The notes beneath the pieces are model-generated. The model did not search any database. It worked only from the letters and a program-made list of their open reading frames with translations, and was not told the DNA's origin. DNA of 64,000 nucleotides. Origin: Desulfosudaceae bacterium. Its GTDB lineage: Bacteria > Desulfobacterota > Desulfobacteria > Desulfobacterales > Desulfosudaceae. The DNA lies in assembly GCA_963674745.2 (NCBI GenBank), contig CAXXDV010000001.1, positions 2,208,001-2,272,000 of the forward strand. Direction: 5' to 3'. Positions 50,205-64,000 of this stretch are shown here, in pieces. The position numbers and the translations under genes are program-made. How positions within the stretch are numbered: the stretch's first letter is position 1; every line of letters begins with the position of its first letter.

Positions 50205-50214
50205 GGAGGATATT

Positions 50215-51036: not shown

Positions 51037-51042
51037 CCTGTT

Positions 51043-52359
51043 TTGAAAGTACATCTGACCAGCCTGGGTTGCGCCAAGAACCAGGTAGACAGTGAGTTGA
51101 TGCTGGGCATGTTCCTGGAACGGGGACATCTGCCATGTGATACGCCTGACGAGGCTGACGCCATTGTTGTCAATACCTGCGCTTTTATTGAAGCGGCCGT
51201 TGAAGAGGCGATCGATACGATTCTTGAACTGGCGAAATTCAAAAGCGAACAATGCCGCCTGATCGTCTGTGGCTGCCTTCCGGAAAGATATCAGTACGAC
51301 CTGGCAGATTCTTTGCCCGAGGTCGATTTTTTTTTCGGAACCGGCGCCTACCACAAGGTGGTCGATGCGCTGGCGGCGGATACCGGCCGTCTTGTCCGGT
51401 GTTCCCTGCCGCCCCCGGAAAGCGTCAGCCTGGCTCACAAATTCCCCGGCAGAATGTGGCGCCGTGACGGATTTGCGTACCTGAAAATCGCTGAAGGATG
51501 TGACCGGCGATGTACTTATTGTATTATCCCCAAACTACGCGGCCGCCGGAAAAGCCGCCCCCTCGAAGATATTGTTTCTGAAGCGACCGCCCTGGTCGAA
51601 ACGGGTGTTCGGGAACTGGTATTGATCAGCCAGGAAACGTCCGCTTACGGTCGGGATTTGACGCCGATGACGGATTTAACGGAACTTCTGGACGTCCTTT
51701 CGGCGCGATTTCCGGAAACGTGGGTCCGTTTGCTTTATATGCATCCGGAAACCATTACTTCCGGGCTGATCCGTATGATCGCGGACCGGGAAAATATCTG
51801 TTCATATTTTGATATTCCCGTCCAGCATGCGACAGACCGGATATTAAAACGTATGGGCCGGCACCATAAAAGAGCGGATCTTTTCCGGCTTTTTACACAA
51901 ATCAGGAGACATGTGCCGCAGGCCGCTTTGCGGACCACCGTCATGGTCGGATTCCCGGGAGAAACCAAACCGGATATGGATGAGTTAATGAATTTTATTA
52001 AAGAGATAGAGTTTGACCATGTGGGTGTCTTCGTATATTCTGATCATGAAGATCTGGCTTCCCATGGTCTGGCCGGTCATGTCGCTTTGGAAAAGGCGGA
52101 AACGAGGCGTCACCGGTTGATGACCGCACAGGCAGAAATCTCCCGGGCGCGTAACCATCAGCGACTGGGTGAGAACCTTCGCGTTCTGCTGGAAAATCGG
52201 ATCGGGGATCATCTTTTTGATGGCCGGGCTGAATTTCAGGCGCCGGAGGTGGACGGCATTATCCGGGTTGCCGGTGAAGACCCGGTAAATTGCGGTGATT
52301 TTGTCACCGTGCACGTAACGGAAGCGACCGAATACGATCTTTCGGGAAAAATTGTATGA
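51043..52359 (+). CDS. rimO: Ribosomal protein S12 methylthiotransferase
   Basis: SLGCAKNQVDSE, NTCAFIE, KIAEGCDRRCTYC.IP, APEVDG. Confidence 0.93.
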   Translation: MKVHLTSLGCAKNQVDSELMLGMFLERGHLPCDTPDEADAIVVNTCAFIEAAVEEAIDTILELAKFKSEQCRLIVCGCLPERYQYDLADSLPEVDFFFGTGAYHKVVDALAADTGRLVRCSLPPPESVSLAHKFPGRMWRRDGFAYLKIAEGCDRRCTYCIIPKLRGRRKSRPLEDIVSEATALVETGVRELVLISQETSAYGRDLTPMTDLTELLDVLSARFPETWVRLLYMHPETITSGLIRMIADRENICSYFDIPVQHATDRILKRMGRHHKRADLFRLFTQIRRHVPQAALRTTVMVGFPGETKPDMDELMNFIKEIEFDHVGVFVYSDHEDLASHGLAGHVALEKAETRRHRLMTAQAEISRARNHQRLGENLRVLLENRIGDHLFDGRAEFQAPEVDGIIRVAGEDPVNCGDFVTVHVTEATEYDLSGKIV

Positions 52360-53339
52360 CTGAGAATCTTAAACAGGCCATTTTAACGGCGGTGGCCGAA
52401 GATATTGATGAAATTGAAAAGGCGCTGGGCGATAACCTGACACCCTACCTGGACAAGGTCCGGGAAATCGCCGGTCATATTCTTTTCAGCGGCGGCAAGC
52501 GGATACGGCCGTTGTTGATGATATTAAGCGCCAGATTATGTGGTTACCAGAAGAATGATGCGGCAACCTTTGCTATTCTTTTCGAATATCTGCACACGGC
52601 GACGCTGCTCCATGATGATCTTGTGGATTATGCCAGTGTCCGGAGAGGTAAGCCTGTGGCCAACACTATCTGGGGGAACGCTTCTGCGGTCCTTACCGGA
52701 GACTTCCTTCTGGCCCGGGCCAGCAGCCTGGCAGTGAAAACAGAAAAAATGGAAATTCTGGAGATTTTGGCGCGGATCACTGAAGACATGTCCCAGGGGG
52801 AGCTTCATCAGTTGGCGAAAAAAGGTGATCCGGAACTGTCCGAAGCAGAATATCTGCAGATCATCAGAAACAAAACGGCTGTTCTGATGCAGGGGGCCTG
52901 TCTGTCCGGGGCTATTCTGGCGGATGCCTCCCCGGCTGAAAAGCAGGCCATGTCTGATTACGGTATTAATCTGGGAATGGCTTTTCAAATGGCGGACGAT
53001 CTTCTGGATTACGTTTCAGACAGTGAACAGCTTGGAAAGGCTGTGGGGGCGGACCTGAGGGAAGGGAAGTTTACCCTGCCGCTGATCGCCAGTCTGGCCA
53101 GGGCCGATGAGCGTGACGCCGGGCAGATAAAAGAAATGATGAATAAAAGGGAGTTCTCAACTGAAGCGTTCCAGGCCTTGAACCGATTACTTGACAAATA
53201 CGGTGGCATTGATTATACGCGGACCTGCGCTGCCGCTTATGTTGCCCGGGCCAAAGCTGCGCTGTCCATGTTCAAGCCCTCAACCGCCGGAGACATACTG
53301 GCGATGCTTGCCGATTACACTTTGGCGAGGAACAGCTAA
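52356..53339 (+). CDS. Polyprenyl diphosphate synthase (IspB-like)
   Basis: GGKRIRP, LHDDLVD..RRG, FQMADDLLD. Confidence 0.92.
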   Translation: MTENLKQAILTAVAEDIDEIEKALGDNLTPYLDKVREIAGHILFSGGKRIRPLLMILSARLCGYQKNDAATFAILFEYLHTATLLHDDLVDYASVRRGKPVANTIWGNASAVLTGDFLLARASSLAVKTEKMEILEILARITEDMSQGELHQLAKKGDPELSEAEYLQIIRNKTAVLMQGACLSGAILADASPAEKQAMSDYGINLGMAFQMADDLLDYVSDSEQLGKAVGADLREGKFTLPLIASLARADERDAGQIKEMMNKREFSTEAFQALNRLLDKYGGIDYTRTCAAAYVARAKAALSMFKPSTAGDILAMLADYTLARNS

Positions 53340-53346
53340 CCCGGAG

Positions 53347-54573
53347 ATGAAAATGCGTACTTTAATTTTTGTTCTGACCGGCCTGATGACACTGCTTATC
53401 TTCCCGGTCGCTTACAGTGCCGATTCATCCGATGGTATTCTTTCCATTGAAACCATTGGTACCAGCCGGATAAACGAGGAAGACCCTTCTTCCGCCGAAC
53501 AGGCCGCCATCAGCAATGCGCTGGAACTGGCGCTTGATCGAGGTGTGGCCGCGATCGTACCCCCGGAGATTCTGGCCGGGAATTTTTCGGAGATCGTCAA
53601 TTCTTTTTACGGCCGTACCGAACACTTTATTCTTAACTATAAGAAGTTGGCGGTGACCAAGGTGGATGGCTTCTGCCGGGTTCTGGTCCGGGCATCTATC
53701 CCGGCCGACAATATAAAAGGACGCATCCGGCAGTCCGGTATCATGATCGACAGGTCGGTATCCCCGCGTGTGCTGATTATGATCAGTGAAGAGCGGGATG
53801 GAAAAGTACCTGTCTACTGGTGGCGGAAAGGCGGGTCGAAGCTTATGGTCGTGGCTGAAAAAAGCATGGCCCAGGATTTCGTTAAAAGGGGGCTAACGCC
53901 CTTATCCCACGATCGGGGACAATTGATGATGGACTTGAACGACGACAGCCTCCGTTTAAAGGATAGTGCGGTCTTTGAGATCGGCCGTCAGCTGGGTGCG
54001 GATTTTGTTATTACCGGCCGGTCTTCGGTGGTCATTCCGGATAATTTCAGGCCTGAAAGAGGGGGGGATGTTTTGGGGGTGATTGATGCCCGGCTGCTGG
54101 ATATCAATACCGAGAGCATTATTTCCATCGCCACGATCCATCATAGTGCCAGTCACTCGGAGAATGCTCCCGGCAGACACAACGCTCTTTCCGGGGCCGG
54201 AACGGAGGCGGTACGGCGATTTGCGCCGGCCATTATTACGGCTTTCGAACAACAGAAAAACAGGCCTCATGAATATCAAATCCGTATTGAGGGTGCCGGA
54301 TACCTGGCCTACCTGAACACATTTCGAAATCTTCTGGCGTCCCTTGACGGCGTTGACCAGCTCCAGATTAATGAAATGAAAAGAGACGAGGCTGTTATCA
54401 GCGTGAACTTCAGGGGGAGTACGCGTGAACTGGCCGGTAAACTGGCTTCAGCGGCTTCTGAGGGTTTAACCATAAATGTCCGGCGTGTTTTAGAAGACGG
54501 TATCGTCATCACGCTGGCACCACCGGATATGACGGCTGATTTCAATGAGACGGGAGAAACAACCAGGCCATAA
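53347..54573 (+). CDS. Hypothetical exported protein
   Basis: GGAG RBS, signal peptide, long ORF in operon context. Confidence 0.7.
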   Translation: MKMRTLIFVLTGLMTLLIFPVAYSADSSDGILSIETIGTSRINEEDPSSAEQAAISNALELALDRGVAAIVPPEILAGNFSEIVNSFYGRTEHFILNYKKLAVTKVDGFCRVLVRASIPADNIKGRIRQSGIMIDRSVSPRVLIMISEERDGKVPVYWWRKGGSKLMVVAEKSMAQDFVKRGLTPLSHDRGQLMMDLNDDSLRLKDSAVFEIGRQLGADFVITGRSSVVIPDNFRPERGGDVLGVIDARLLDINTESIISIATIHHSASHSENAPGRHNALSGAGTEAVRRFAPAIITAFEQQKNRPHEYQIRIEGAGYLAYLNTFRNLLASLDGVDQLQINEMKRDEAVISVNFRGSTRELAGKLASAASEGLTINVRRVLEDGIVITLAPPDMTADFNETGETTRP

Positions 54574-54862
54574 CAGCCGGCTGGGATTTGCCGGGCGGCT
54601 GATCGAAGACCTTTTGCTGCTTTTCCGGTTGCTGATCGATTTTATCCGGGGGAGATATCGTCAGGTGCCGGTGCGGGTCATTGCTGTATTGATTTTTGTT
54701 CTGGTTTATATTTTTTCACCGTTTGATCTTATTCCGGATTACCTGCCGGGTTTCGGGCAGATTGACGACGTCGTTGTGGCTTTGCTTTGTCTTTATTTTT
54801 TAGAAAAGGACCTGCTGATTTATAAACAATGGAAAACAGGCAATAGCGGGGAGCAGGAATGA
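54545..54862 (+). CDS. YkvA/DUF1232 family membrane protein
   Basis: YIFSPFDLIPDYLPGFGQIDD. Confidence 0.9.
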   Translation: MRREKQPGHNSRLGFAGRLIEDLLLLFRLLIDFIRGRYRQVPVRVIAVLIFVLVYIFSPFDLIPDYLPGFGQIDDVVVALLCLYFLEKDLLIYKQWKTGNSGEQE

Positions 54863-55680
54863 CTATTCGCGATGAAATCCTTCGTGCGGCCAGCATACTG
54901 GCGAGAGCGGAAAATGCCGTGGCATCTACCGGTGCCGGCATCTCCGCGGAAAGCGGCATCGCCACTTTCAGGGATCCGGGGGGTGTCTGGGACCGGCTGG
55001 ACCCGATGGAAGTGGGTAACACCGCCGGATTGATAAACGCTCTGGATAAAAACGCTGAGAAATATGTGTCGTTGTTTATCGAATTGCTGGATTCTTTGGA
55101 AAGCGCCGAGCCCAATGCCGGGCATCTGGCACTTGCCGATCTCGAAAACTTGGGGATCATTAAAACCGTCATCACCCAGAATATTGACAACCTTCACCAG
55201 GAAGCCGGTAATAGCCGGGTGATTGAGGTCCACGGCAACGGCTTCAGATTTTCCTGCACCTCTTGTGGCCGTCGGGAAGAAAGGGAAAGAAAAGGGCTGT
55301 TAAATGAAGCCAAAAGCAGAATCAAGGCCATGACGGAATTTTCTTTGACGACTTTTATAACGGTGCTTCCGGAATGTGCTCTTTGCGGGGCCATGATGCG
55401 GCCGGACGTGGTCATGTTCGGTGAATCCGTACAGGGCCTTCCGGCCGCTTTCGAAGCGGTCAGGAACTGTGATGCCATGCTGGCGTTGGGAACTTCCGGC
55501 GTGGTCTACCCGGCGGCCTATTTCCCGTTTGAAGCCAAACATGCCGGTGCCAGTGTGATTGTGGTCAATCCCAGTGAAAATCCGTTTTATGCGGTTTCTG
55601 ATGCCTATATACCGATGAAAGCCGGAGAAGCCCTGCCGCAAATAGTCGAAGCGGTCAGGCAGATCCGTGGCGATGCCTGA
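54859..55680 (+). CDS. NAD-dependent deacylase (Sir2/CobB family)
   Basis: TGAGISAESGI.TFR, TQNID.LH, HG, RPDVVMFGE, GTS. Confidence 0.93.
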   Translation: MTIRDEILRAASILARAENAVASTGAGISAESGIATFRDPGGVWDRLDPMEVGNTAGLINALDKNAEKYVSLFIELLDSLESAEPNAGHLALADLENLGIIKTVITQNIDNLHQEAGNSRVIEVHGNGFRFSCTSCGRREERERKGLLNEAKSRIKAMTEFSLTTFITVLPECALCGAMMRPDVVMFGESVQGLPAAFEAVRNCDAMLALGTSGVVYPAAYFPFEAKHAGASVIVVNPSENPFYAVSDAYIPMKAGEALPQIVEAVRQIRGDA

Positions 55681-55753
55681 AATATCCGGTTTGACAGCGA
55701 TACCGTTGACGGCGCCGATGTTAATCGTCGATGCCTGATGAAATGACACTTCA

Positions 55754-57472
55754 ATGGGGAGGGAAAACATGGGAAATGAGCGTTTCTGGACCAAAGCCTA
55801 TGATGAGGGAGTGGGAGATCTTTCTCCGGATCAATGGGAAATCAGCTATGTAGATGCCGTTCGGCCGACTTTTTCAAGCCTCGGAGACAAGACCGCCTAC
55901 GCTTTCATGGGGACGCATATCAGCTTTTCCGATCTTGATCGTTATGCCAACCGGTTCGCGCGGATGCTGCTGGACAACGGGTTTCAAAAAGGCGACACGG
56001 TCGGTATTAACCTGCCCAATATCCCTGAATATGCCATTGCCTGGCTGGGCACACTTCGCGCCGGTTGCGTGGTTTCCGGTGTGTCCCCCCTGCTGTCGTC
56101 ACCGGAGATGAAACACCAGCTGGCCGACTCCAAAGCCAGGGGCGTGGTGACCCTGGACGCGATTTTTGCCGCCAGGGTGACGGAAATCGCCGATGAACTG
56201 CCGGATTTGAAACTGATCGTCGTGGCCGGCGTGGGCGGGTTCCTGTCGCCCGTAAAGCGGTTTTTAGGCAAGCGGCTGGGGAAAATTCCGACCGGTAAAA
56301 TAACGCCCCTTGCCGGCAAAACCGTCCTGAAGATCGAACCGGTCATTAAAAGCGCGACTTACAGTGACGCCGATCCCGGTGTAACGGTGACACCCGATGA
56401 CATCGCCTATATCCAGTATACCGGCGGCACCACCGGGCTTCCCAAGGGGGCGCAGTTGAGTCATCGCAACGTGGTGGCCGATCTGCTGATCGTTCAGCAC
56501 TGGCTGCACTGGGAAAAAGGACGGGGGCTGGCCCTGTCGGGATTCCCGTTTTTTCACATCGCCGGTCTGTTTTTCAATAAAAACTGTATTTACCTGGGCT
56601 GGACCCAGGTGCTGATTCCCAATCCGCGGGATACGGACCATATCTGCAAGGAAATAAAAAAATATCAGCCGACGGTACTGGTCAACGTGCCGTCTCTGTT
56701 TCAGATGCTGATCGCCAATCCCGGGTTTAAGACGCTGGACCATTCCGGCCTGGAGGCCTGTATCTCTGCGGCTTCTCCTTTTCCCGAGGAATCCCAGCGG
56801 CAACTGGAGCAGATCGTCGGCAAGGAAAAGCTGCTCGAGGTCTACGGTATGACCGAGACGGCTCCGCTGACCACCATGAATCCCGTTGACGGCCCCAAGA
56901 AACTGGGCCATATCGGCCTGCCCCTGCCCAATACGGACATCTGTTTAAAAAGCACCGAAACCGGCGAACCCGTTCCCATTGGTGAACCAGGTGAGATATG
57001 TGTCAAGGGGCCCCAGGTGATGGTGGGGTATTTCAATAAGCCCGAGGAGACCCAAAAAGTCTTTGATGCCGAAGGTTATCTGCATACCGGTGACGTGGCC
57101 GTTCAGGACGAAGACGGCTACCTGCGGATTGTCGATCGTACCAAGGATATGATCATCGTCAGCGGGTTCAAGGTATTTTCCCGCCGGGTGGAGGACCTCC
57201 TTTCCGAACATCCGGCCATCGAAATGATCGCCACCATCGGCCGTCCCAACCCCGACCGTCCCGGTTCGGAACTGGTCGAGGCCTATGTCAAACCCGTTGA
57301 GGGCCATCCTCTGGCTGCGGACAAGGACGCCCTGGAAAAGGAAATCGTCGCTTTTGCCAAGGAGAAGCTGTCTCCTTATGAAGTGCCCAAGCGGATTCAT
57401 GTCATGGATGAGCTGCCTCTGACGACCGTCGGCAAGGTGGACAAGAAGGTGTTGCGCAAACGCGAGGATTGA
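55754..57472 (+). CDS. Long-chain acyl-CoA ligase (FadD-like)
   Basis: YTGGTTGLPKG, YGMTE, TGD, DRTKDM, LPLTTVGK. Confidence 0.92.
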   Translation: MGRENMGNERFWTKAYDEGVGDLSPDQWEISYVDAVRPTFSSLGDKTAYAFMGTHISFSDLDRYANRFARMLLDNGFQKGDTVGINLPNIPEYAIAWLGTLRAGCVVSGVSPLLSSPEMKHQLADSKARGVVTLDAIFAARVTEIADELPDLKLIVVAGVGGFLSPVKRFLGKRLGKIPTGKITPLAGKTVLKIEPVIKSATYSDADPGVTVTPDDIAYIQYTGGTTGLPKGAQLSHRNVVADLLIVQHWLHWEKGRGLALSGFPFFHIAGLFFNKNCIYLGWTQVLIPNPRDTDHICKEIKKYQPTVLVNVPSLFQMLIANPGFKTLDHSGLEACISAASPFPEESQRQLEQIVGKEKLLEVYGMTETAPLTTMNPVDGPKKLGHIGLPLPNTDICLKSTETGEPVPIGEPGEICVKGPQVMVGYFNKPEETQKVFDAEGYLHTGDVAVQDEDGYLRIVDRTKDMIIVSGFKVFSRRVEDLLSEHPAIEMIATIGRPNPDRPGSELVEAYVKPVEGHPLAADKDALEKEIVAFAKEKLSPYEVPKRIHVMDELPLTTVGKVDKKVLRKRED

Positions 57473-57665
57473 TTTTCCATGTTTGCCCCTTTAATATGGT
57501 AATAAATGGAAAATCCTGGTTATTTATTATTGAGAAAAGCAAACATGGAAAATATGGCGGAATATTTTCCACGTTTACCCCTTTAATAATAGTAATACAT
57601 GGAAAACTTTCCACATATATACGCCAATAACATGGAAAATTTTTCCACCTATTACACTGTTGGAA
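57472..57665 (+). promoter_or_regulatory. Array leader / putative attI-like site with iterated TGGAAAA/TTTTCCA boxes
   Basis: Ends in G|TTGGAA (57659), complementary to the first cassette's R'' TTCCAAC; about 8 TGGAAA(A) boxes in both orientations. Confidence 0.6.
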
Positions 57666-57680
57666 GCATTGGAAAAAGGT

Positions 57681-58559
57681 ATGATAAATATATTATCGTT
57701 TATATTCTTCATTCTGATCAGTTTTCCAGCGTTCGCAGAAGAGCCTACCGTTTTTCAGATGCCTAAAAATGAAAACATCTATTTCAAGAGTTATTCATAT
57801 ACTTTCTCAGAATACTTTCAGTTCAATGCAAACGGAACATATCGAAAAATAACCCGAGAACATATGTATGTTGATGAAAGCGATCACGGCACATGGAGAC
57901 AGGACAAATCTGGAGAGCTCATTTTAACATCGCAGGAGCATTATCGTAATATTGAATGTGCTTCATTGTGCATTGGCATATGGAATGCTGAGGGAATTAA
58001 GCGACTGCCGTTGGTAAAGGAATATATCAAAAAACTCCTTGATAATTCTAATGTGCAAGCGTTTACAAAAGAGCAAATAGAAGCAAGGAAGCTGTACGGT
58101 AAGAAACATATAAATAAAATGCTCCTTGCTAAATTTAACGAGCAAGAGTTAACAAAGGAACTAATTGATGAAATTGAGAACACAGATTTTGAACATTCAA
58201 ACCCACCACTCATCTATGTTGATTATAGAGTTGAAATAGTACCTCGGAGTGATCTCAATGACCTTATAAAACAGATTGATGAGTTTCTGAATGATTCAGA
58301 AAAAAAAGACTTTCATGCAACACCTATGAACTATAAGGGACAGACATTTCTTCTTTGGAAAAATGCACAAACTTGTTCAAAACAAGATCTGAAAGAAACT
58401 TTAGCGGAGATTGACAAACATAATTCTGAAACTACCCTTACACACATTTATACTAAAATTAAGGGGGACATTTTTCAAAAAGAATCAGAGACGACTCAAG
58501 AATTTATTTTTTATCCAGAGATGAATACTTGTATACCACAACCTGAAAAAAGAGAATAA
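57681..58559 (+). CDS. Cassette 1: hypothetical exported protein
   Basis: ATG after AAAGG; signal peptide MINILSFIFFILISFPAFA. Confidence 0.75.
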   Translation: MINILSFIFFILISFPAFAEEPTVFQMPKNENIYFKSYSYTFSEYFQFNANGTYRKITREHMYVDESDHGTWRQDKSGELILTSQEHYRNIECASLCIGIWNAEGIKRLPLVKEYIKKLLDNSNVQAFTKEQIEARKLYGKKHINKMLLAKFNEQELTKELIDEIENTDFEHSNPPLIYVDYRVEIVPRSDLNDLIKQIDEFLNDSEKKDFHATPMNYKGQTFLLWKNAQTCSKQDLKETLAEIDKHNSETTLTHIYTKIKGDIFQKESETTQEFIFYPEMNTCIPQPEKRE

Positions 58560-58565
58560 ATAGGC

Positions 58566-58693
58566 TTCCAACAATTCAGCGCAATAGGATCGCCAGGGCA
58601 CTCGGATTTTGAACAGCCGTGCTGAATTGTATATTAACCGACTTTAAGACAGTCGGAGGAAGCCCTGGCGCCCTTTGGCTGAAGACGTTATAT
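58566..58693 (+). repeat. attC site 1 (family A)
   Basis: TTCCAAC...CGCCAGGGC...GCCCTGGCG...GAC|GTTATAT. Confidence 0.88.
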
Positions 58694-58713
58694 TTTATGA
58701 AGGATATTTCTGA

Positions 58714-59226
58714 ATGGATAAGAAAAAATGTTTGATATGCTGTAGTGAAATAGATGTTCAGGCTAAAAAATGTCCTTTTTGTAAACACTGGCAAAATAAA
58801 ATTAGCCTGGTGATTTGGCATCCATTTTTTACAGTAGCGATATTGCTTGTTCTTTACCTTCTATTCCAACAATTCTTCATTGATACACTTGGCCCTGGTG
58901 AGGATTTTGCTCCGGTAAGAAGTGAGATTGTTTTAAAGGATTGTACTATGGAGTTCGGTGAATCCAAATGCGGGCAAACAGTGGTCATTTTAGGAATGAT
59001 TGAAAATAATAGCGATCTAAATTGGGAAAAACCAAATTTTGAAATAATTTTCTTTGACAAGGATAAAAATATAATTGATACCGAACAGGAGGAAAATTAC
59101 AGTTTTGTCCTACCATCAAAAGAAAAAGTCCCTTTTAAGGTATCGATTAGAAGAGAATTTCCGCAGGAACTTTATGACTCGTTTGAGATACGAATTGTAA
59201 CGGCCAAAGAAGAAGGCCACTATTAA
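58714..59226 (+). CDS. Cassette 2: zinc-ribbon + TM + FxLYD-like domain protein
   Basis: CxxC..CPxC, one TM helix, G.IEN.S..FFDKD. Confidence 0.7.
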   Translation: MDKKKCLICCSEIDVQAKKCPFCKHWQNKISLVIWHPFFTVAILLVLYLLFQQFFIDTLGPGEDFAPVRSEIVLKDCTMEFGESKCGQTVVILGMIENNSDLNWEKPNFEIIFFDKDKNIIDTEQEENYSFVLPSKEKVPFKVSIRREFPQELYDSFEIRIVTAKEEGHY

Positions 59227-59227
59227 A

Positions 59228-59352
59228 ATATAACAACACGTTGGTAAGGGACCGCAAGGGGCGTCCGATTTTGGCTCTTGCCACATAATTCAAAAACGAG
59301 TTTTCTGCGGGTGGCTCCTTCCCCTTGCGGCCCCACACCGTGGACGTTATAT
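59228..59352 (+). repeat. attC site 2 (family B)
   Basis: ATATAAC...CCGCAAGGGG...CCCCTTGCGG...GAC|GTTATAT. Confidence 0.88.
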
Positions 59353-59372
59353 GCTTAAAAAGGAATTAGAGA

Positions 59373-59804
59373 ATGAAGTACGTCGCATTTATCTTGATTT
59401 TTTTTTCGGCTTTGGCATTTGCAAATGATAGCAAACACTACGAGCTTGCAAAACAATTTGATGAGTTATCTGGGGCGCAAGACAAAACAAAGCTGGTTGA
59501 TTCCATATTGCCAAACTTGGTAATCAATATGCCAGAACTAAAAGGCAATGAAAATATCATCAGAGAACATTTAATAAGCATACTATCATCACAAGAATAT
59601 CAAGATGGAAAAATAAATGTATATATGAGCATTTATAACGAAAAGCAGCTTGAGTCGCTCATTGAGTTAGTGAAATCACCTGCTTTTAAATTACTGCAAG
59701 ATCACAGATATGAAATGAATATTGGTTTTATTAAAAACATGAATGAAATAATTCAAAGAAGAATGCCAGAGCTTGAAGCAAAGGTAGCTAATCAAAAAGA
59801 ATAA
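59373..59804 (+). CDS. Cassette 3: hypothetical exported helical protein (DUF2059-like)
   Basis: AAGGA RBS, signal peptide ending ALAFA. Confidence 0.7.
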   Translation: MKYVAFILIFFSALAFANDSKHYELAKQFDELSGAQDKTKLVDSILPNLVINMPELKGNENIIREHLISILSSQEYQDGKINVYMSIYNEKQLESLIELVKSPAFKLLQDHRYEMNIGFIKNMNEIIQRRMPELEAKVANQKE

Positions 59805-59807
59805 TTC

Positions 59808-59933
59808 ATATAACAACGCCACTCACCCGGACTCGCAGGGGCGGTCGGCTTTGGGTTTAGGCATAAGTTGGTGTTGAACGCACATTAAAAAAGGTCTGTA
59901 CCCCCTGCTCGCCGGTGGTGGCGGACGTTAGCC
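59808..59933 (+). repeat. attC site 3 (family B)
   Basis: ATATAAC..GCCAC..GCAGGGG...CCCCTGC..GTGGC GGAC|GTTAGCC. Confidence 0.88.
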
Positions 59934-59952
59934 CTACAAGGATTCTACAATT

Positions 59953-60357
59953 TTGAAATACAAATTGTTCATATTTTTCTTCGCGATTATTTCCACCTTG
60001 GGAGTATCCTCCTTTGCCGATGAGACAGGCCAAGTGGAAGTTGCAAGACGAGTCGTAATTAAATTTTTGAGTGCAATTGAAAACAAAAACCTGAATGCGT
60101 ATAAGGACATTATTCATCCCAATTCAGATGCCAGTTTGATGAAAGTGTGGCGTAAATGGGAGAAAATTCACAATCGCCAAAGCTTAGATAAATTATCCGT
60201 TATTTCTGGAGATGACGATATAATGATTTTACGAGCTGATATCATGACTATATCTCAGAAACGTTCTAAATCAGATATAATATTTATTTTGCAAAAGTGG
60301 TCCGGCGAATGGAAAATTTTGGACTTAACAGAAATTGATCAACAATTTTTGGGCTAA
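59953..60357 (+). CDS. Cassette 4: hypothetical exported protein (NTF2-like)
   Basis: TTG start after AAGGA, signal peptide, C-terminal GEWKI; stop codon inside R''. Confidence 0.65.
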   Translation: MKYKLFIFFFAIISTLGVSSFADETGQVEVARRVVIKFLSAIENKNLNAYKDIIHPNSDASLMKVWRKWEKIHNRQSLDKLSVISGDDDIMILRADIMTISQKRSKSDIIFILQKWSGEWKILDLTEIDQQFLG

Positions 60358-60479
60358 CAATCAAGCTCAAGTGGACAGCCAGGGCACTCGGGTTTCGAAA
60401 AGTCGGGGAAATTTGAACAATCAAAATTTTAAACAAAGCTGGTGGAAGCCCTTGCTGCCATTGGCTTGAGACGTTATAA
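60352..60479 (+). repeat. attC site 4 (family A)
   Basis: GGCTAAC..AAGCTCAAGTGGACAGC...GCTGCCATTGGCTT GAGAC|GTTATAA. Confidence 0.9.
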
Positions 60480-60485
60480 ATCGAT

Positions 60486-61163
60486 ATGAACATTTCCAAA
60501 CCATACATATTGTTTTTAAGCTTTGTTCTTTTGTTTATTGTTGATTCCATTTGTCATGCTAATGAAATTGAAAAAAAGTTCATTGAAGCAGGGCTTATTG
60601 ACATTCATATGATCGATGAATCGATAAAAGTCGATCTCGTGAATTCTGATCCCGACAAAAATTTTTTTCGGGAAAATTTTTATAATGGCCTTAATAAGGC
60701 TTATCTCCGTAGAGAAGTCGCCCAAAAATTATCAACGGCTCAAAAATATCTAAAATCAGAATTCTCCGATTATTCAATTTTGATAATGGATGCGGCTCGT
60801 CCGAGAAGTGTGTCACAACGAATGTATGATAAAATGAAGGGGACCAAATTCGAAAAATTTGTCGCCAATCCTAATAGAGGATCAATGCATAATTATGGTA
60901 TCGCTGTTGATGTAACAATAGTGGACGGAAATGGCAAAGAAATTGATATGGGATTTACGCCTTTTTACAAGAGCAATCTTTCAATCTACTGGGGTTATGC
61001 AAAACTCAAAATGTTTGACCTTAGCGGAGAACAAAGAAAGAACCGGAAACTGCTTTCGACCATAATGAAAAAGGCTGGGTTTTACCCTCTAAGTTATGAA
61101 TGGTGGCATTTTAACGGATTATCGAAGGATCTAGCCCGTAAGAAATACGTAATAATCGAATAA
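60486..61163 (+). CDS. Cassette 5: D-Ala-D-Ala dipeptidase-like (peptidase M15D, VanX/DdpX family) with signal peptide
   Basis: DAARP..V, SMHNYGIAVDVT, DMG, EWWHF. Confidence 0.88.
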   Translation: MNISKPYILFLSFVLLFIVDSICHANEIEKKFIEAGLIDIHMIDESIKVDLVNSDPDKNFFRENFYNGLNKAYLRREVAQKLSTAQKYLKSEFSDYSILIMDAARPRSVSQRMYDKMKGTKFEKFVANPNRGSMHNYGIAVDVTIVDGNGKEIDMGFTPFYKSNLSIYWGYAKLKMFDLSGEQRKNRKLLSTIMKKAGFYPLSYEWWHFNGLSKDLARKKYVIIE

Positions 61164-61164
61164 T

Positions 61165-61287
61165 TTATAACAACACCATGCACTTGACTCGCAGGGGCGG
61201 GCTGCTTTTTAAGTATCCTGGTTTGGTGTTAACGTGGCTTTGTAAAAGGCACGTTTCCCTGCTCCCAAGTGACGGTGGACGTTATAT
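61165..61287 (+). repeat. attC site 5 (family B)
   Basis: TTATAAC..CACTTG..GCAGGG...CCCTGC..CAAGTG..GGAC|GTTATAT. Confidence 0.88.
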
Positions 61288-61307
61288 TTTATGAAGGATA
61301 TTTCTGA

Positions 61308-61820
61308 ATGGATAAGAAAAAATGTTTGATATGCTGTAGTGAAATAGATGTTCAGGCTAAAAAATGTCCTTTTTGTAAACACTGGCAAAATAAAATTAGC
61401 CTGGTGATTTGGCATCCATTTTTTACAGTAGCGATATTGCTTGTTCTTTACCTTCTATTCCAACAATTCTTCATTGATACACTTGGCCCTGGTGAGGATT
61501 TTGCTCCGGTAAGAAGTGAGATTGTTTTAAAGGATTGTACTATGGAGTTCGGTGAATCCAAATGCGGGCAAACAGTGGTCATTTTAGGAATGATTGAAAA
61601 TAATAGCGATCTAAATTGGGAAAAACCAAATTTTGAAATAATTTTCTTTGACAAGGATAAAAATATAATTGATACCGAACAGGAGGAAAATTACAGTTTT
61701 GTCCTACCATCAAAAGAAAAAGTCCCTTTTAAGGTATCGATTAGAAGAGAATTTCCGCAGGAACTTTATGACTCGTTTGAGATACGAATTGTAACGGCCA
61801 AAGAAGAAGGCCACTATTAA
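61308..61820 (+). CDS. Cassette 6: duplicate of cassette 2
   Basis: Identical 170-aa translation. Confidence 0.75.
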   Translation: MDKKKCLICCSEIDVQAKKCPFCKHWQNKISLVIWHPFFTVAILLVLYLLFQQFFIDTLGPGEDFAPVRSEIVLKDCTMEFGESKCGQTVVILGMIENNSDLNWEKPNFEIIFFDKDKNIIDTEQEENYSFVLPSKEKVPFKVSIRREFPQELYDSFEIRIVTAKEEGHY

Positions 61821-61821
61821 A

Positions 61822-61946
61822 ATATAACAACACGTTGGTAAGGGACCGCAAGGGGCGTCCGATTTTGGCTCTTGCCACATAATTCAAAAACGAGTTTTCT
61901 GCGGGTGGCTCCCTCCCCTTGCGGCCCCACACCGTGGACGTTGGGC
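61822..61946 (+). repeat. attC site 6 (copy of attC2)
   Basis: Same as attC2 except T59319/C61913; R' GTTGGGC. Confidence 0.88.
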
Positions 61947-61969
61947 GTAAAAAAAACGGGGAGTTCAAA

Positions 61970-62449
61970 ATGAATCAACCGATAAGCGATAAACATTTGA
62001 AAGAAATAAAACGCATACGAATAAGTTTAATAAAAAATGTACTTATTTTTTGTATCTGCGTTGCATCTATTCCATTCTTTTATACCAAGGGCTATTTTAT
62101 AATTGATAAAATGTCTTCTAAAAGTATCGATCAGTATTCAATAGAACTTCAGAACCAATTGACAGAAATCAATGGCATTAATGCGGTTACAAAAAACGAG
62201 AAACGGCTGAAAGAAATTAGCTGGCAGAACACATCTATAATATTCAACGTCGTAAAGAAAATACCCGAGGGTATTAATTCGGTCACTTGTATACTGCTGG
62301 CATTTTCAGCGTTTTTATTTTTTATTAATCTTTATACTCAGTATCGTTGTCTAAAATTAATTAAAAACATTCAAAACGCCCAACCAAGCAGCTCAAAAGG
62401 ATCGCCAGGGCATTCGGGTTTTGAGCAGTCGGGGGTCACTGAACATTAA
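61970..62449 (+). CDS. Cassette 7: hypothetical 2-TM membrane protein, reads into attC7
   Basis: GGGGAG RBS, ATG 61970, two hydrophobic segments. Confidence 0.7.
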   Translation: MNQPISDKHLKEIKRIRISLIKNVLIFCICVASIPFFYTKGYFIIDKMSSKSIDQYSIELQNQLTEINGINAVTKNEKRLKEISWQNTSIIFNVVKKIPEGINSVTCILLAFSAFLFFINLYTQYRCLKLIKNIQNAQPSSSKGSPGHSGFEQSGVTEH

Positions 62450-62505
62450 CCATATATAAGTCAGTCGGAGGAAGCCCTGGCGCCCTTTGGCTGCCGCCGT
62501 TATGC
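62378..62505 (+). repeat. attC site 7 (family A)
   Basis: GCCCAAC..GCAGC..CGCCAGGGC...GCCCTGGCG..GCTGC..GTTATGC. Confidence 0.88.
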
Positions 62506-62519
62506 GTAACGAGTATCAT

Positions 62520-63005
62520 ATGAATGATATAACATCAGATTCAACCCTTTTAACATTATATGGATTTGGAATCATATCGATCACCTTAGATATTTGGTTT
62601 TTTATCCCTTTTTGGGGACAGTGTGCGATAATTTGGCCATTAGCCATATTTGCAATAATTATTTATTATGGACAATTGCGAAAAGAAGAGGTCATCCCTC
62701 CAGCAGATTTGAAATTTTTTCTATTCCCTTTCTTTAACCCAATAGTATTAATTGCTTTATGGCTTGCGCTATTTTTTCCTAGAATGAACGATCCAATTAT
62801 AACCAATTTCGGAAAGCTCCACTTTTTGTTTGTATTTATATTTTTTTCTTTCGGTATAGATACTATGATTTTAAATTCTGATAACTATCAAGGGGTGTCT
62901 GATTTGGGCCGAATGTGTTGGATTTGTTCTTTTACAATTGCTTTATTGTTATCAATTACAATTAGAGTATTTCAATATAAAAGGAATAAACAAAACTGCG
63001 CATAA
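62520..63005 (+). CDS. Cassette 8: hypothetical multi-TM membrane protein
   Basis: Highly hydrophobic; stop codon inside R'' GCATAAC. Confidence 0.7.
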   Translation: MNDITSDSTLLTLYGFGIISITLDIWFFIPFWGQCAIIWPLAIFAIIIYYGQLRKEEVIPPADLKFFLFPFFNPIVLIALWLALFFPRMNDPIITNFGKLHFLFVFIFFSFGIDTMILNSDNYQGVSDLGRMCWICSFTIALLLSITIRVFQYKRNKQNCA

Positions 63006-63126
63006 CCAAGAAGCTCAAGTGGACATCCAGGGCATTCGGGTTTTGAAAAATCGGGGGAATTGAACAGCCAAAATTATTAACAAAGCTGGTGGAAGCCCTG
63101 GCTGCCATTGGCTTCAGACGTTAGCG
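63000..63126 (+). repeat. attC site 8 (family A), R' interrupted by group II intron after GTTA
   Basis: GCATAAC..AAGCTCAAGTGGAC...CCATTGGCTT CAGAC|GTTA. Confidence 0.88.
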
Positions 63127-64000
63127 CGCCAAGCGAAGCTTGGTGCGTCTTGCGGGGTGCAAGTCCCCGTCGGGTGAGGCCTAACCAGCCACCCGTATCG
63201 AGTGTTGCGTGATTGGGAAGGATAGGCATACCGTCGAACGACCCACACGAAGCGTACACAGAGAATCGTACAGGCCGTAGGGGAGTCCGTGCTCCCTGAA
63301 GTGCTGGTATCGCTTCGAAAGGAAGCTTGGTTCCGGTCGCCGAGAGTTGTAACGTACTCGAAGGCAACACAAAAGCATCCGTTATGGTGAGGGTGTGGAG
63401 GGCCGGCGGAGTTATCAAGCCGTGGCATGTACGAAGAGACGCACACAAGAACTTGGGAGGCCCATCCGACTCCTGCGCGGCAATATGGTCCGGCTGACAC
63501 TTAGACACGAAAGGGAAACCCGGATACAGATATCAGCCGAGCCTAAGTAGCCGCAGGGCAGGAAGGGGAACCAAAGCGAAAGTGGAGGAACCCTGGTTGG
63601 GTGGGAGTCGTATCGAGCATAGTACTCTGAGCGTGGGAAAGCCACGTACATGGGGAAGGACTTGACGGAAGTACGTAGCCCGCAAAGGAAACACATGCCG
63701 GACACAGCAGGATCGGATAAACGTGTGCAAACCTCACTGCGGGGGATAGCCAAAACGGCTCGGTTCAACACGCAGCATCGCTTTCGGGATCTTTATGGTC
63801 TGCTTAATACGGAACTGCTTCATCTGGCGTGGAAGGGCTTGAATAAAAGTTCGGCCATAGCCGATGACGACATCACCGTCAAGACATACAGTCAGGACCT
63901 GATCGCCAACCTGGAAGGGCTGGCGGAACAGCTCCGGCAGAAGAGATACCGGGCGAGATTGGTCAAAAGACGTTTTATTCCAAAGCGTAACGGTAAGAAA
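63124..64000 (+). mobile_element. Group II intron, 5' part (runs off window)
   Basis: 5' GCGCG, hairpin CCAAGC-GAA-GCTTGG, TGCGTCT pairing with AGACGCA at the end of DI, GGGGTGCAAGTCCCC, EBS1 loop TAACGT, followed by an RT ORF. Confidence 0.9.
63695..64000 (+). CDS. Group II intron reverse transcriptase/maturase, N-terminus (truncated by window end, not in ORF track)
   Basis: AAGGA RBS; MPDTAGSDKRVQTSLRGIA..HRFRDLYGLL..AW..L..KRYRARLVKRRFIPKRNGK (RT domains 0-1). Confidence 0.88.
   Translation, partial: MPDTAGSDKRVQTSLRGIAKTARFNTQHRFRDLYGLLNTELLHLAWKGLNKSSAIADDDITVKTYSQDLIANLEGLAEQLRQKRYRARLVKRRFIPKRNGKK

What the first reader, a model, noticed from the sequence alone, without database searches (positions are those of the whole stretch)
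63111..64000. Group II intron that appears to target the top strand of the attC R' core via EBS1
Seen: the intron starts at 63124 (GCGCG, then a hairpin and a DI basal stem), right after GAC-GTTA of attC8, in the same orientation as the cassettes. A stem-loop GAGT-tgTAACGT-ACTC (63344-63359) displays TAACGT, the exact complement of the last six 5'-exon bases ACGTTA (63118-63123). ACGTTA also occurs at the R' of attC1-5; attC6 has ACGTTG (G-U pair) and attC7 has CCGTTA. Established: the well-known IIC-attC introns insert in the opposite orientation, on the bottom strand. Inference: this intron is from a different lineage; the TSLRGIA N-terminus of its protein suggests class E, unverified. It reads the crossover sequence by base pairing and leaves the GTT intact. 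It becomes the 5' part of the next cassette, so it could be moved by IntI and transcribed with the array.
Basis: partly seen in the sequence, partly recalled or inferred. Interest (0 to 1): 0.85.

Follow-up and report, generated by a model that had tools for sequence, protein, structure and literature searches.

The report
Sense-strand attC-homing group II intron
A complete, probably active mobile intron sits in the recombination site between two integron gene cassettes, pointing the same way as the genes, and it belongs to a widespread environmental intron clade that finds this site by RNA-DNA base pairing, on the opposite strand and by a different means from the textbook integron-invading introns.

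Summary
A 2003-nt group II intron starts at window 63124, right after ...GGCTTCAGACGTTA of an attC site, and ends 1126 nt past the window end. It points the same way as the cassette ORFs. A second, 100% identical copy lies in another attC of the same genome, 7 kb from an integron integrase gene.

Relatives from other genomes and metagenomes gave 52 distinct 5' exons, and 48 end in GTTA or GTTG. The EBS1 loop (TAACGT, 63350-63355) pairs with the exon at 5 or more of 6 positions in 40 of 42 loci. It also shows two compensatory changes.

I found a second pairing. An internal loop (EBS2, GAAGCT, 63322-63327) pairs with GGCTTC (63110-63115) in the L' arm of the attC, and this pairing covaries across loci. 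Both copies in this genome sit in the 11 of 106 attC sites that carry GGCTTC.

The RNA is IIE/IIF-type, not IIC. A firm class E label could not be tested.

The accessible literature describes only bottom-strand IIC-attC introns, one CL1 intron, class E fragments and one odd IIC case. Earlier notes of this scan reported sense-strand attC introns on other DNA, including a class-E-like one. There is no RNA or bench evidence.

The parts
63000..63123 (+). attC site (5' exon). R'' GCATAAC is at 63000-63006 and overlaps the stop codon of the upstream cassette ORF (62487-63005). The R' core GTTA is at 63120-63123. The last three bases of R' lie beyond the intron, at window-equivalent 65127-65129.
   Evidence: The site is a member of a 154-copy attC family found with an nhmmer profile. 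The repeat family is seen. An anchored DNA fold gives -16.9 kcal/mol against -4.6 for shuffles.
63110..63115 (+). IBS2 (GGCTTC), exon positions -14 to -9, in the L' arm of the attC
   Evidence: It pairs with GAAGCT at 63322-63327 (6 bp, one of them G-U; duplex -8.2 kcal/mol). Both intron copies lie in the 11 of 106 CGTTA-ending attC sites that carry GGCTTC here.
63118..63123 (+). IBS1 (ACGTTA), covering the GTT of the crossover core plus one base
   Evidence: It is the exact complement of TAACGT at 63350-63355. Conservation and covariation in relatives are shown.
63124..64000 (+). Group II intron, the part inside the window (bases 1-877 of 2003). The intron ends at window-equivalent 65126 (L009 11126).
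   Evidence: A second identical copy exists. Alignments to relatives run from base 1 to base 2003. The 3' profile places the end after ...CCUACCACGAC.
63129..63143 (+). Hairpin near the 5' end (CCAAGC-GAA-GCTTGG) directly after GCGCG
   Evidence: It is read from the sequence. The stem changes on both sides in L019 (CCGA...TCGG) in the alignment.
63160..63421 (+). Domain I core matched by Rfam RF02005 (group-II-D1D4-6)
   Evidence: 111.2 bits, E = 2.6e-31, model positions 1-225 of 225.
63318..63331 (+). Unpaired internal loop of domain Id that carries EBS2 (core GAAGCT, 63322-63327)
   Evidence: It is unpaired in the Rfam consensus and in the RNAalifold consensus of 49 relatives. It covaries with exon positions -8 to -15.
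63344..63359 (+). EBS1 hairpin (stem GAGT/ACTC; EBS1 TAACGT at 63350-63355)
   Evidence: It is a hairpin loop in the Rfam and alifold consensus structures. In 40 of 42 loci it pairs with the exon at 5 or more of 6 positions, with compensatory changes in L019 and L133.
63650..64000 (+). Start of the intron-encoded reverse transcriptase/maturase (458 aa; ORF L009 9650-11026, window-equivalent 63650-65026)
   Evidence: Pfam RVT_1, E = 1.4e-33. NCBIfam TIGR04416 scores 342 bits against a cut-off of 300. YADD is present and no endonuclease domain is found.

Best explanation
[quoted passage not shown] Its homing site is the 3' end of integron attC sites, read on the cassette-sense (top) strand. Two loops of domain I base-pair with the DNA. 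EBS1 (TAACGT) pairs with ACGTTA, which is the R' crossover core plus flanking bases. EBS2 (GAAGCT) pairs with GGCTTC in the L' arm, two bases further upstream. The RNA reverse-splices after GTTA, three bases downstream of the G|TT crossover point, so the intron becomes the first part of the next cassette. Because the protein has no endonuclease, cDNA priming probably depends on the replication fork. In both copies the sense strand is the G-rich strand, which is the lagging-strand template. Because the intron points the same way as the cassettes, it can be transcribed with the array and splice out, which leaves the downstream gene untouched. What is shown: the anatomy, the boundaries, the two identical copies, conservation of the target across a monophyletic clade, and covariation of EBS1 and EBS2 with the exons. 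What is inferred: splicing, the retrohoming pathway, the role of the replication strand, and expression from the cassette promoter.
For: Boundaries and copies. Group II identity: RF02005 at 111 bits. TIGR04416 at 342 bits. Domain V has a 2-nt bulge and a 5-nt loop, and domain VI has a bulged A 7 nt from the 3' end. The attC context: 154 attC sites of this family in the genome and three integron integrase genes over the cut-off, one of them 7 kb from copy B and reading away from the cassette array. Target conservation: 45 GTTA, 3 GTTG, 2 ATTA, 1 GTTC and 1 TTTA among 52 distinct 5' exons. EBS1: 26 of 42 loci pair at 6 of 6 positions and 40 of 42 at 5 or more. Two of the 3 exons changed at -4 carry the matching EBS1 change, against 0 of 39 unchanged exons (Fisher P = 0.0035). 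EBS2: the mean duplex energy with the intron's own exon is -4.37 kcal/mol against -3.43 with other exons. None of 2000 permutations reached this, and Wilcoxon P = 0.013. Clear covarying pairs are L168, L142, L136, L102, L105, L127 and L013. Within this genome both copies are in the GGCTTC class, 11 of 106 sites (P about 0.01). All 11 exact GGCTTC-NN-ACGTTA sites in the genome lie in attC sites. The 5' exons are hairpin-prone: 36 of 43 fold better than the mean of their shuffles (Wilcoxon P = 3e-8; folds, statistics). Clade: all GTTR-labelled introns but the long-branch row L022 fall in one clade of 55 rows (SH-aLRT 99). Its nearest neighbours include rhizobial plasmid introns that are not at GTTA. 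Sense orientation in relatives: 34 of 49 loci have a same-strand ORF of at least 60 aa that starts within 150 nt downstream and is longer than any opposite-strand frame. Tandem introns that are 88% alike (L101) show that an occupied site is still a target, so recognition lies on the 5' side. GC skew places both copies with the sense strand on the G-rich strand.
Against: There is no RNA or bench evidence. No RNA run was listed, and no contig joined the two exons across the intron. EBS2 pairing is weak or absent in many loci, for example -2.5 kcal/mol or weaker in L015, L017, L097, L108, L119 and L159. In four other loci the best pairing lies 4-5 bases further upstream. The EBS2 loop was picked from a scan of the same data. 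In that scan the peak (26) was 2.3 times the permuted mean at that column (11.4), but it did not exceed the highest value found anywhere in 30 permutations (29). The later statistics are therefore post hoc. Per locus, only 15 of 43 exons fold better than shuffles at z < -2. Only 3 of 38 loci have an exact 7-of-7 R'' partner for the restored R'. The 5' end is GCGCG rather than the consensus GUGYG in 31 of 53 distinct junctions. By my own reading of the fold, domain V has AAC where I recall AGC. The replication-strand argument rests on two copies and on GC skew alone. Some exons break the rule (L107 AGTTC, L110 GGTTA, L159 CATTA without compensation).
Confidence: 0.85

Rival explanations
1. Recognition works as in group IIC introns. 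The intron or its protein reads the folded top-strand attC hairpin plus a short IBS1, and the apparent EBS2 pairing is a by-product of similar L' arms among attC sites and has no function.
For: About half of the 49 loci show no convincing EBS2 pairing. The 5' exons are hairpin-prone as a set. EBS2-IBS2 was dispensable for self-splicing of a IIE and a IIF intron in vitro (PMC3753933, passages read). The unbiased scan peak did not exceed the global maximum of the permutations.
Against: In a folded hairpin both IBS1 and IBS2 would be base-paired with R'' and L'', which competes with the intron RNA. EBS2 changes together with unusual L' arms: L168 GGGTTT with AACCC, L142 GAGATT with GATCTC, and this genome's GAAGCT with GGCTTC. 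Both copies here chose the GGCTTC subclass, 11 of 106 sites. L108 sits after a sequence that does not fold like an attC.
Confidence: 0.1
2. The introns are passengers. One or a few old insertions were spread by the integron integrase as parts of cassettes, so the shared junction reflects descent and not site-specific homing.
For: The intron lies on the cassette side of the G|TT crossover. L108 and L111 share the intron plus at least 127 nt of the downstream cassette (1 mismatch in 2164 nt), but they have unrelated sequence upstream of GTTA.
Against: The two copies in this genome share 36 nt of upstream attC but have different downstream cassettes. This is the opposite of what transport by the integrase predicts. 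There are 57 distinct 3' exons and 52 distinct 5' exons. Tandem introns are found. EBS1 changes are compensated by exon changes.
Confidence: 0.03
3. The true 5' splice site is the consensus-like GTGCG at 63143, and 63124-63142 is exon.
For: GTGCG fits the GUGYG consensus better than GCGCG does.
Against: Empty attC sites in the genome stop matching at 63122-63127. The relatives' alignments and their conserved sequence start at 63124, while their flanks are unrelated. The exon ending at 63123, not the one ending at 63142, pairs with the EBS1 loop.
Confidence: 0.01

Closest known systems
Group IIC-attC introns (S.ma.I2 and relatives; PMC3001079 passages read; summary in PMC7923331)
   Same: They are mobile group II introns without an endonuclease domain that insert site-specifically into integron attC sites, including in arrays that lack an integrase.
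   Different: They have the IIC ribozyme with no EBS2. They insert in the bottom strand, opposite to cassette transcription, at TTGT/T in R'', and they need a DNA stem-loop plus a 3-4 bp IBS1. The intron here has an IIE/IIF-type ribozyme of 626 nt. It inserts in the top strand, in the sense orientation, after GTTA in R', and it pairs with the exon through a 6-bp EBS1 and an EBS2.
H.ha.F1 and H.ha.F2, class E intron fragments in a Halorhodospira halochloris attC cluster (PMC7923331; passages read)
   Same: They are class E-type introns on the cassette-sense strand of an attC array, with attC-like structures upstream. The authors speculated about a role of those structures in targeting.
   Different: Those copies are 5'-truncated, so no 5' junction, EBS1 or EBS2 could be read. 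No targeting lineage or mechanism was shown. I could not test whether they belong to the clade found here.
UHB.I2, a IIB1/CL1 intron in a soda-lake cassette array (PMC7923331)
   Same: It is a non-IIC intron in the same orientation as the cassettes, immediately after an attC site.
   Different: It belongs to a different protein class (CL1). Its boundaries are UUGCG..GU. The authors reported poor exon conservation among its relatives.
[quoted passage not shown] 2012, known to me only as cited in PMC7923331; the paper itself is not held)
   Same: It is a sense-oriented, top-strand insertion in an attC.
   Different: It is a class C intron and was described as a single case.
Group IIE introns such as Cl.be.I2 (PMC3753933; introduction read, passages)
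   Same: The ribozyme is 450-700 nt, domain V has a 5-nt loop, EBS1 and EBS2 lie in domain Id, and the protein has no endonuclease domain.
   Different: No attC target is reported for them in the passages I read. A shared protein clade with the intron here could not be tested.

Membership tests
Group II intron | Domain I-IV ribozyme core | tested here: met
   RF02005 at 111.2 bits against a gathering score of 49, with the full model matched.
Group II intron | Domain V hairpin with a 2-nt bulge, and domain VI with a bulged A near the 3' end | tested here: met
   The fold of L009 11027-11126 shows a CG bulge in domain V and a bulged A at L009 11119, 7 nt from the end, with z = -2.99. Rfam RF00029 did not reach its gathering score on this copy.
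Group II intron | Boundaries 5'-GUGYG ... AY-3' (consensus as quoted in PMC7923331) | tested here: inconclusive
   The 3' end is AC, which fits. The 5' end is GCGCG, with C in place of U at position 2. This is the commonest form in the clade (31 of 53 distinct junctions), and GTGCG occurs in 5.
Group II intron | Intron-encoded reverse transcriptase/maturase in domain IV | tested here: met
   TIGR04416 at 342 bits against a cut-off of 300. RVT_1 is matched and YADD is present.
IIE/IIF structural type (PMC3753933) | 5-nt loop in domain V in place of the usual 4-nt loop | tested here: met
   The loop is GAAAA, closed by GCGG/CCGC. Relatives keep a 5-nt loop, as read by eye in the sequences printed.
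IIE/IIF structural type (PMC3753933) | Ribozyme of 450-700 nt without the ORF, and a protein without an endonuclease domain | tested here: met
   2003 nt minus a 1377-nt ORF leaves 626 nt. RVT_1 is the only Pfam domain found.
IIE/IIF structural type (PMC3753933) | The alpha' motif at the tip of a stem-loop in DId3, plus an extra bulge loop | not tested
   A second hairpin follows the EBS1 hairpin, but alpha-alpha' pairing was not examined.
Bacterial class E (protein phylogeny) | The intron protein groups with named class E references | not testable with these tools
   No named class E sequence could be fetched. The class F/g3 reference Ni.ha.I1 hits RF02003, not RF02005. It shares 37% identity over the reverse transcriptase part only and lies outside the clade. 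The g1 reference Sr.me.I2 shares 32% identity.
Group IIC-attC introns | IIC ribozyme without EBS2 | tested here: not met
   The RNA is RF02005-type and 626 nt long, and an EBS2 loop covaries with the exon.
Group IIC-attC introns | Insertion in the attC bottom strand, opposite to the cassettes, at TTGT/T | tested here: not met
   The intron is on the same strand as the cassette ORFs and sits after GTTA of R'.
Integron attC site (the target) | Imperfect inverted repeat with R'' (..TAAC) and R' (GTT...) cores at the 3' end of promoterless cassettes, with an integron integrase in the genome | tested here: met
   Searches show the site, and one search shows three integrase genes at 415-429 bits against a cut-off of 265. 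The window's own array has no such gene over the cut-off within it; the nearest over the cut-off is about 150 kb away, so it counts as an attC cluster without an integrase.

The most novel reading that the evidence does not exclude
This clade may be a dedicated hitch-hiker of integrons. It would home into attC top strands that are exposed on the lagging-strand template of chromosomal arrays. It would retune EBS2 to the attC family of each host and leave the GTT crossover usable. It would then be carried between arrays and across phyla by the integron integrase as part of the cassette it heads. L108 and L111 share the same intron and cassette behind unrelated upstream DNA, which fits this. If true, integrons are a vehicle for intron spread, and the intron is a natural attC-specific targeting RNA.
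Probability: 0.3. Interest if true: 0.8.

Novelty: new variant of a known kind. Interest (0 to 1): 0.7.

Why it matters
In the 2015 review I read (PMC4424553), insertion at integron attC sites is treated as a speciality of class C introns, which read a DNA hairpin on the bottom strand and sit backwards in the array. Here a separate intron clade, found in at least seven phyla, reaches the same site on the other strand by ordinary EBS-IBS base pairing with about 12 bases of the L'-R' end. That is convergent targeting of the same recombination site by a different mechanism. A sense-oriented intron can be spliced out of cassette transcripts. It stays with the downstream cassette when the integrase cuts, and its EBS2 appears to track the host's attC family. 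The idea is directly testable with homing assays. It also bears on how integron arrays are populated by other mobile elements, and on whether such introns could serve as attC-specific gene-targeting tools.

Tried and rejected
1. RNA evidence. The look-up of sequencing runs listed no RNA holder.

2. Empty site. Read laying on three DNA runs of one study gave no contig joining 63123 to the 3' exon. Intron depth was about twice that of the flanks, and the conserved intron parts were far deeper. The short joints seen inside the intron had sides under 50 letters at 90% likeness, and I did not use them.

3. Class E label. The plasmid accessions CP000320, AE006469 and DQ363750 were not in the collection. 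RefSeq forms of two of them gave class F/g3 and g1 references only. Simon et al. 2008 and Rodriguez-Martinez et al. 2012 are not held. A search for 'Ps.tu.I1' found no paper.

4. Test of R''/R' complementarity across the intron. Only 3 of 38 loci have an exact 7-of-7 partner and 8 have 6 of 7. This is weak, as expected, because the distal R' bases come from the next cassette.

5. CTGAAG at 63295-63300 as EBS2. It is a perfect complement of CTTCAG at 63112-63117, but I rejected it because it is conserved in relatives whose exons differ.

6. Pattern search for CGTTR in the window. It gave 216 matches against 234 expected, so the search served only to show that IBS1 alone is not specific.

7. The search of earlier findings by sequence and by place gave nothing.

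8. Rows with long branches in the tree (L019, L020, L022, L031) probably come from wrongly picked or broken ORFs, and I did not interpret them.

9. No structure prediction or protein database search was run, because the protein family is not in doubt.
Full report
WHAT IS THERE

An attC site runs from 63000 to 63123. Its R'' (GCATAAC) is at 63000-63006 and overlaps the stop codon of the upstream cassette ORF. The site ends ...TTGGCTTCAGACGTTA at 63123. GCGCG follows at 63124, then the hairpin CCAAGC-GAA-GCTTGG at 63129-63143.

Rfam finds one family in 50000-64000: RF02005, group-II-D1D4-6, at 63160-63421, with 111.2 bits against a gathering score of 49 and the whole model matched. In its consensus, and in an RNAalifold consensus of 49 relatives, the stretch GAGT-tgTAACGT-ACTC (63344-63359) is a hairpin with TAACGT in the loop.

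The window ends inside the intron, so I took the rest from the genome. The window is C1:2208001-2272000. L009 is C1:2262001-2280000, and an L009 position equals the window position minus 54000.

The ORF at L009 9650-11026 encodes a 458-aa protein. It matches Pfam RVT_1 only and passes NCBIfam TIGR04416, group II intron reverse transcriptase/maturase, at 342 bits against a cut-off of 300. YADD is present and there is no endonuclease domain.

The last 100 nt fold into two hairpins. The first is a domain V hairpin with a 2-nt CG bulge and a 5-nt GAAAA loop. The second is a domain VI hairpin with a bulged A 7 nt from the end. The intron ends ...CCUACCACGAC.

BOUNDARIES

A search of the genome with 63100-64000 gave 13 matches. 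Two are full length and 100% identical: the window itself and C3:2340157-2341057 on the minus strand. The other 11 match only the first 23-28 bases, which are the attC tail, and stop at 63122-63127.

The two copies are identical from 63088 to window-equivalent 65127 and unrelated outside that stretch. Blastn against the first set of relatives gave alignments that start at intron base 1 in eight loci and at base 3 in two. Eight of these alignments end at base 2003.

The intron is therefore window 63124 to window-equivalent 65126, 2003 nt, of which 626 nt are ribozyme. The alternative 5' site GTGCG at 63143 is excluded.

THE HOST SITES

An nhmmer profile built from nine local attC sites finds 154 sites of this family in the genome.

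Three integron integrase genes pass the TIGR02249 cut-off. One lies at C3:2348261-2349205 on the plus strand, with its cassette array running leftwards on the minus strand. Copy B of the intron lies in that array, about 7 kb from the integrase gene, and points the same way as the cassettes.

The window's own array (C1:2266554-2289173, plus strand) has no such gene over the cut-off within it. The nearest over the cut-off is about 150 kb away, so the array counts as an attC cluster without an integrase.

In both arrays the ORFs, the R''-to-R' direction and the intron share one strand. The downstream cassette of the window copy encodes a DUF4240 protein. Its Pfam match begins at the ATG at L009 11142, 16 nt after the intron and behind an AAGGA, so the insertion lies in the 5' leader and not in the gene.

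IS IT A HABIT OF THE LINEAGE?

Scans with the protein gave 80 loci from species genomes and 79 from metagenomes. A profile of the first 100 alignment columns located the 5' end in 62 sources. Of these, 56 have a usable junction with at least 5 nt of exon, which gives 53 distinct exons.

One of the 53 is another intron's 3' end (a tandem arrangement, seen in L101 and L157). The other 52 end as follows:
- GTTA in 45
- GTTG in 3
- ATTA in 2
- GTTC in 1
- TTTA in 1

Position -5 is C in 43 of the 52.

The 57 distinct 3' exons begin with G (29), T (21) or A (7), and never with C. Many restore a canonical R' such as GTTA|GGC or GTTA|GAC, but only 18 of 57 fit RRY.

As a set, the 5' exons fold like attC sites. 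With AAC forced to pair with GTT, 36 of 43 fold better than the mean of their own shuffles (mean z -1.5, Wilcoxon P = 3e-8). Only 15 of 43 reach z < -2 on their own. Several are textbook sites, for example L015, L161 and L168, where GCCTAAC or GCATAAC is matched by GTTA|GGC or GTTA|TGC across the intron.

In 34 of 49 loci with at least 400 nt of 3' flank, an ORF of at least 60 aa starts on the intron's strand within 150 nt and is longer than any frame on the opposite strand.

In a maximum-likelihood tree of 102 intron proteins, every intron with a GTTR exon except L022 falls in one clade of 55 rows (SH-aLRT 99). L022 is a long-branch row, probably from a mis-picked ORF, and it sits unresolved outside the clade. 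The clade's nearest neighbours include introns from Rhizobium etli and Bradyrhizobium japonicum plasmids. These have the same RNA type but other flanks. Hosts named in the records span Thermodesulfobacteriota, Myxococcota, Lentisphaerota, Pseudomonadota, Krumholzibacteriota, Nitrospirota, Moduliflexota and a Bacillota genome bin.

HOW THE SITE IS READ

EBS1. I could extract the EBS1 loop in 42 loci. In 26 of them it pairs with exon positions -1 to -6 at 6 of 6 positions (G-U allowed), and in 40 at 5 or more.

The informative cases are the three exons changed at -4:
- L019 has ACATTA with loop TAATGT, a compensatory change.
- L133 has ATTTTA with loop TAAAGT, also compensatory.
- L159 has GCATTA and is not compensated.

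None of the 39 loci with G at -4 has the partner base changed (Fisher P = 0.0035).

IBS1 alone cannot explain the specificity. CGTTA occurs 7330 times in this genome, and CGTTR occurs 216 times in the window, as chance predicts.

EBS2. I scanned domain I for stretches that pair with exon positions -6 to -15, using exons swapped among loci as the control. The scan gave one peak over an unpaired 13-nt internal loop just 5' of the EBS1 hairpin, with 26 loci against a permuted mean of 11.4 at that column. The highest value found anywhere in the 30 permutations was 29, so the scan alone is not decisive.

In the window this loop is AAAGGAAGCTTGGT (63318-63331). Its GAAGCT pairs with GGCTTC at 63110-63115.

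Across 49 loci the duplex energy of the loop with its own exon averages -4.37 kcal/mol, against -3.43 with other exons. None of 2000 permutations did as well, and Wilcoxon P = 0.013.

The loop follows unusual exons:
- L168: TGGGTTTG with TGAACCCA
- L142: GAGATTG with TGATCTC
- L136: CAAGTTTA with TGAGCTTG
- L102: GAGCTTG with TAAGCTC
- L127: TGGCT with AGCCA

All of these fall in the register -8/-9 to -12/-15.

About half of the loci show little pairing, and I chose the loop after seeing the same data.

Independent support comes from this genome. Of the 106 attC sites that end in CGTTA, only 11 carry GGCTTC at that position; the others carry GGCTGC (44), GGCTGA (23), GGCGGC (15), GGCTTG (7), GGTGGC (5) and GACTGA (1). 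Both intron copies sit in the GGCTTC class (P about 0.01). All 11 exact GGCTTC-NN-ACGTTA sites in the genome are attC sites.

I read this as ordinary IIB-style homing into about 12 paired bases of the L'-R' end, with looser retrotransposition into attC sites that match EBS1 only.

Tandem introns in L101 are 88% alike over 996 nt, so they are not an assembly artefact. They show that an occupied site can be hit again, which places recognition on the 5' side.

REPLICATION STRAND (INFERENCE)

GC skew puts the origin near C1:1.52 Mb and the terminus near C3:1.34 Mb. In both copies the sense strand is the G-rich strand, which is the lagging-strand template. [quoted passage not shown]

Of the nine unoccupied exact target sites, seven have the same orientation and two the opposite one. 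Two insertions prove nothing.

WHICH KIND OF INTRON

It is not IIC. The ribozyme is 626 nt, it has an EBS2, and it matches RF02005.

Nagy et al. name a 5-nt domain V loop, a ribozyme of 450-700 nt and EBS1/EBS2 in domain Id as marks of IIE and IIF introns (PMC3753933, introduction read). These three are met here.

A labelled class F/g3 intron, Ni.ha.I1, has its coordinates in Table S2 of PMC3552965 (read). It hits RF02003 instead of RF02005. It aligns over the reverse transcriptase part only, at 37% identity, and falls outside the clade. The g1 intron Sr.me.I2 shares 32% identity.

I could not fetch any named class E protein, so 'class E' remains likely but untested.

The 5' end GCGCG departs from GUGYG. 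By my own reading, domain V carries AAC where the canonical triad, recalled from memory, is AGC. Both features are conserved in the clade, which has intact ORFs and two identical copies here, so I do not take them as signs of decay.

LITERATURE

Six full-text searches (plus the failed) and the passages I read show the following.
- IIC-attC introns insert in the bottom strand, opposite to cassette transcription (PMC3001079; PMC7923331).
- A 2015 review lists attC targeting as a class C trait and homing for all other lineages (PMC4424553).
- Sonbol and Siam 2021 report the first IIB association with integrons: UHB.I2 (CL1, sense orientation, directly after an attC) and two 5'-truncated class E fragments in a Halorhodospira attC cluster. 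They speculate that upstream structures matter, and they cite one top-strand IIC case (PMC7923331).
- Toro and Martinez-Abarca 2013 contains neither 'attC' nor 'integron' in its main text. Its Table S1 lists a class D intron in a Vibrio vulnificus chromosomal-integron cassette.
- Two integron papers from 2022, one a review, mention only IIC-attC introns.

I found no description of a full-length E-like clade whose EBS1 and EBS2 read the attC top strand. Subscription journals, including Toro et al. 2002, and the supplements of PMC7923331 were not seen.

Earlier notes of this scan report sense-strand attC introns of several classes in other genomes, one of them called class-E-like. A look-up by sequence found no look-alike of this protein.

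MOVEMENT WITH CASSETTES

The insertion point lies three bases to the cassette side of the G|TT crossover (established knowledge of integron recombination), so the intron belongs to the downstream cassette.

In this genome the two copies share the upstream attC tail but have different downstream cassettes. That is the signature of retrohoming.

L108 and L111 show the reverse. The intron plus at least 127 nt of cassette are nearly identical (1 mismatch in 2164 nt), but beyond GTTA the upstream DNA is unrelated. In L108 that upstream DNA does not fold like an attC. This fits transport of the intron-headed cassette by the integrase, but it does not prove it.

VERDICT

The class label is open. No expression or mobility data exist.

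Noticed in passing
L108 1-2315 and L111 1-2901 (metagenome contigs): The same intron plus at least 127 nt of the same downstream cassette (1 mismatch in 2164 nt) lies behind unrelated upstream DNA. In L111 the upstream DNA is a canonical attC. In L108 it looks like the 3' end of an ordinary gene and has no attC-like fold. This fits movement of an intron-headed cassette by the integron integrase to a secondary site.
   Followed up: partly
L101 1-3021 (junction at 1070/1071); L157 junction at 994/995; L012 3455-3463: Two introns lie head to tail with no exon between them, and in L101 they are 88% alike over 996 nt. In L012 the 3' exon begins with the first 9 bases of an intron 5' end, possibly a remnant of an earlier copy.
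   Followed up: partly
L009 11054-11086 (window-equivalent 65054-65086): Domain V reads GAACCGG... where, from memory, the catalytic triad is AGC. The 5' end is GCGCG, not GUGYG. Both features are conserved across the clade. Rfam RF00029 (domains V-VI) did not reach its gathering score on this copy.
   Followed up: no
window 60486-61163 (+): One cassette of the array encodes a Peptidase_M15 (D-Ala-D-Ala dipeptidase family) protein. Most other cassette ORFs have no Pfam match.
   Followed up: no
window 54859-57472 (+): Sir2-family and AMP-binding enzyme genes lie just upstream of the first attC of this array. No integrase gene stands between them and the cassettes.
   Followed up: no
G000 C1:1739981-1740487, C1:2102784-2103290, C1:2282749-2283252, C3:2332314-2332799: A 255-aa ORF with a partial tyrosine-recombinase match (about 86 bits, below the integron integrase cut-off) recurs four times, each followed by a short broken piece. 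At least two of the copies lie inside or beside cassette arrays.
   Followed up: no
L009 9001-9123 in runs X1 and X2: Some contigs join the end of the attC (9123) back to its start (9001 or 9003). This would fit two attC sites in direct succession elsewhere in the community. Other contigs skip most of the intron ORF, for example 9750 to 11037, which hints at ORF-less derivatives. The sides of these joints are short and likeness was set at 90%, so both are weak.
   Followed up: no
G000 C1 and C3, whole contigs: The genome holds at least 154 attC sites of one family, in arrays on both replichores, and three integron integrase genes. Most arrays, but not all, point in the direction of replication as judged by GC skew.
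   Followed up: partly
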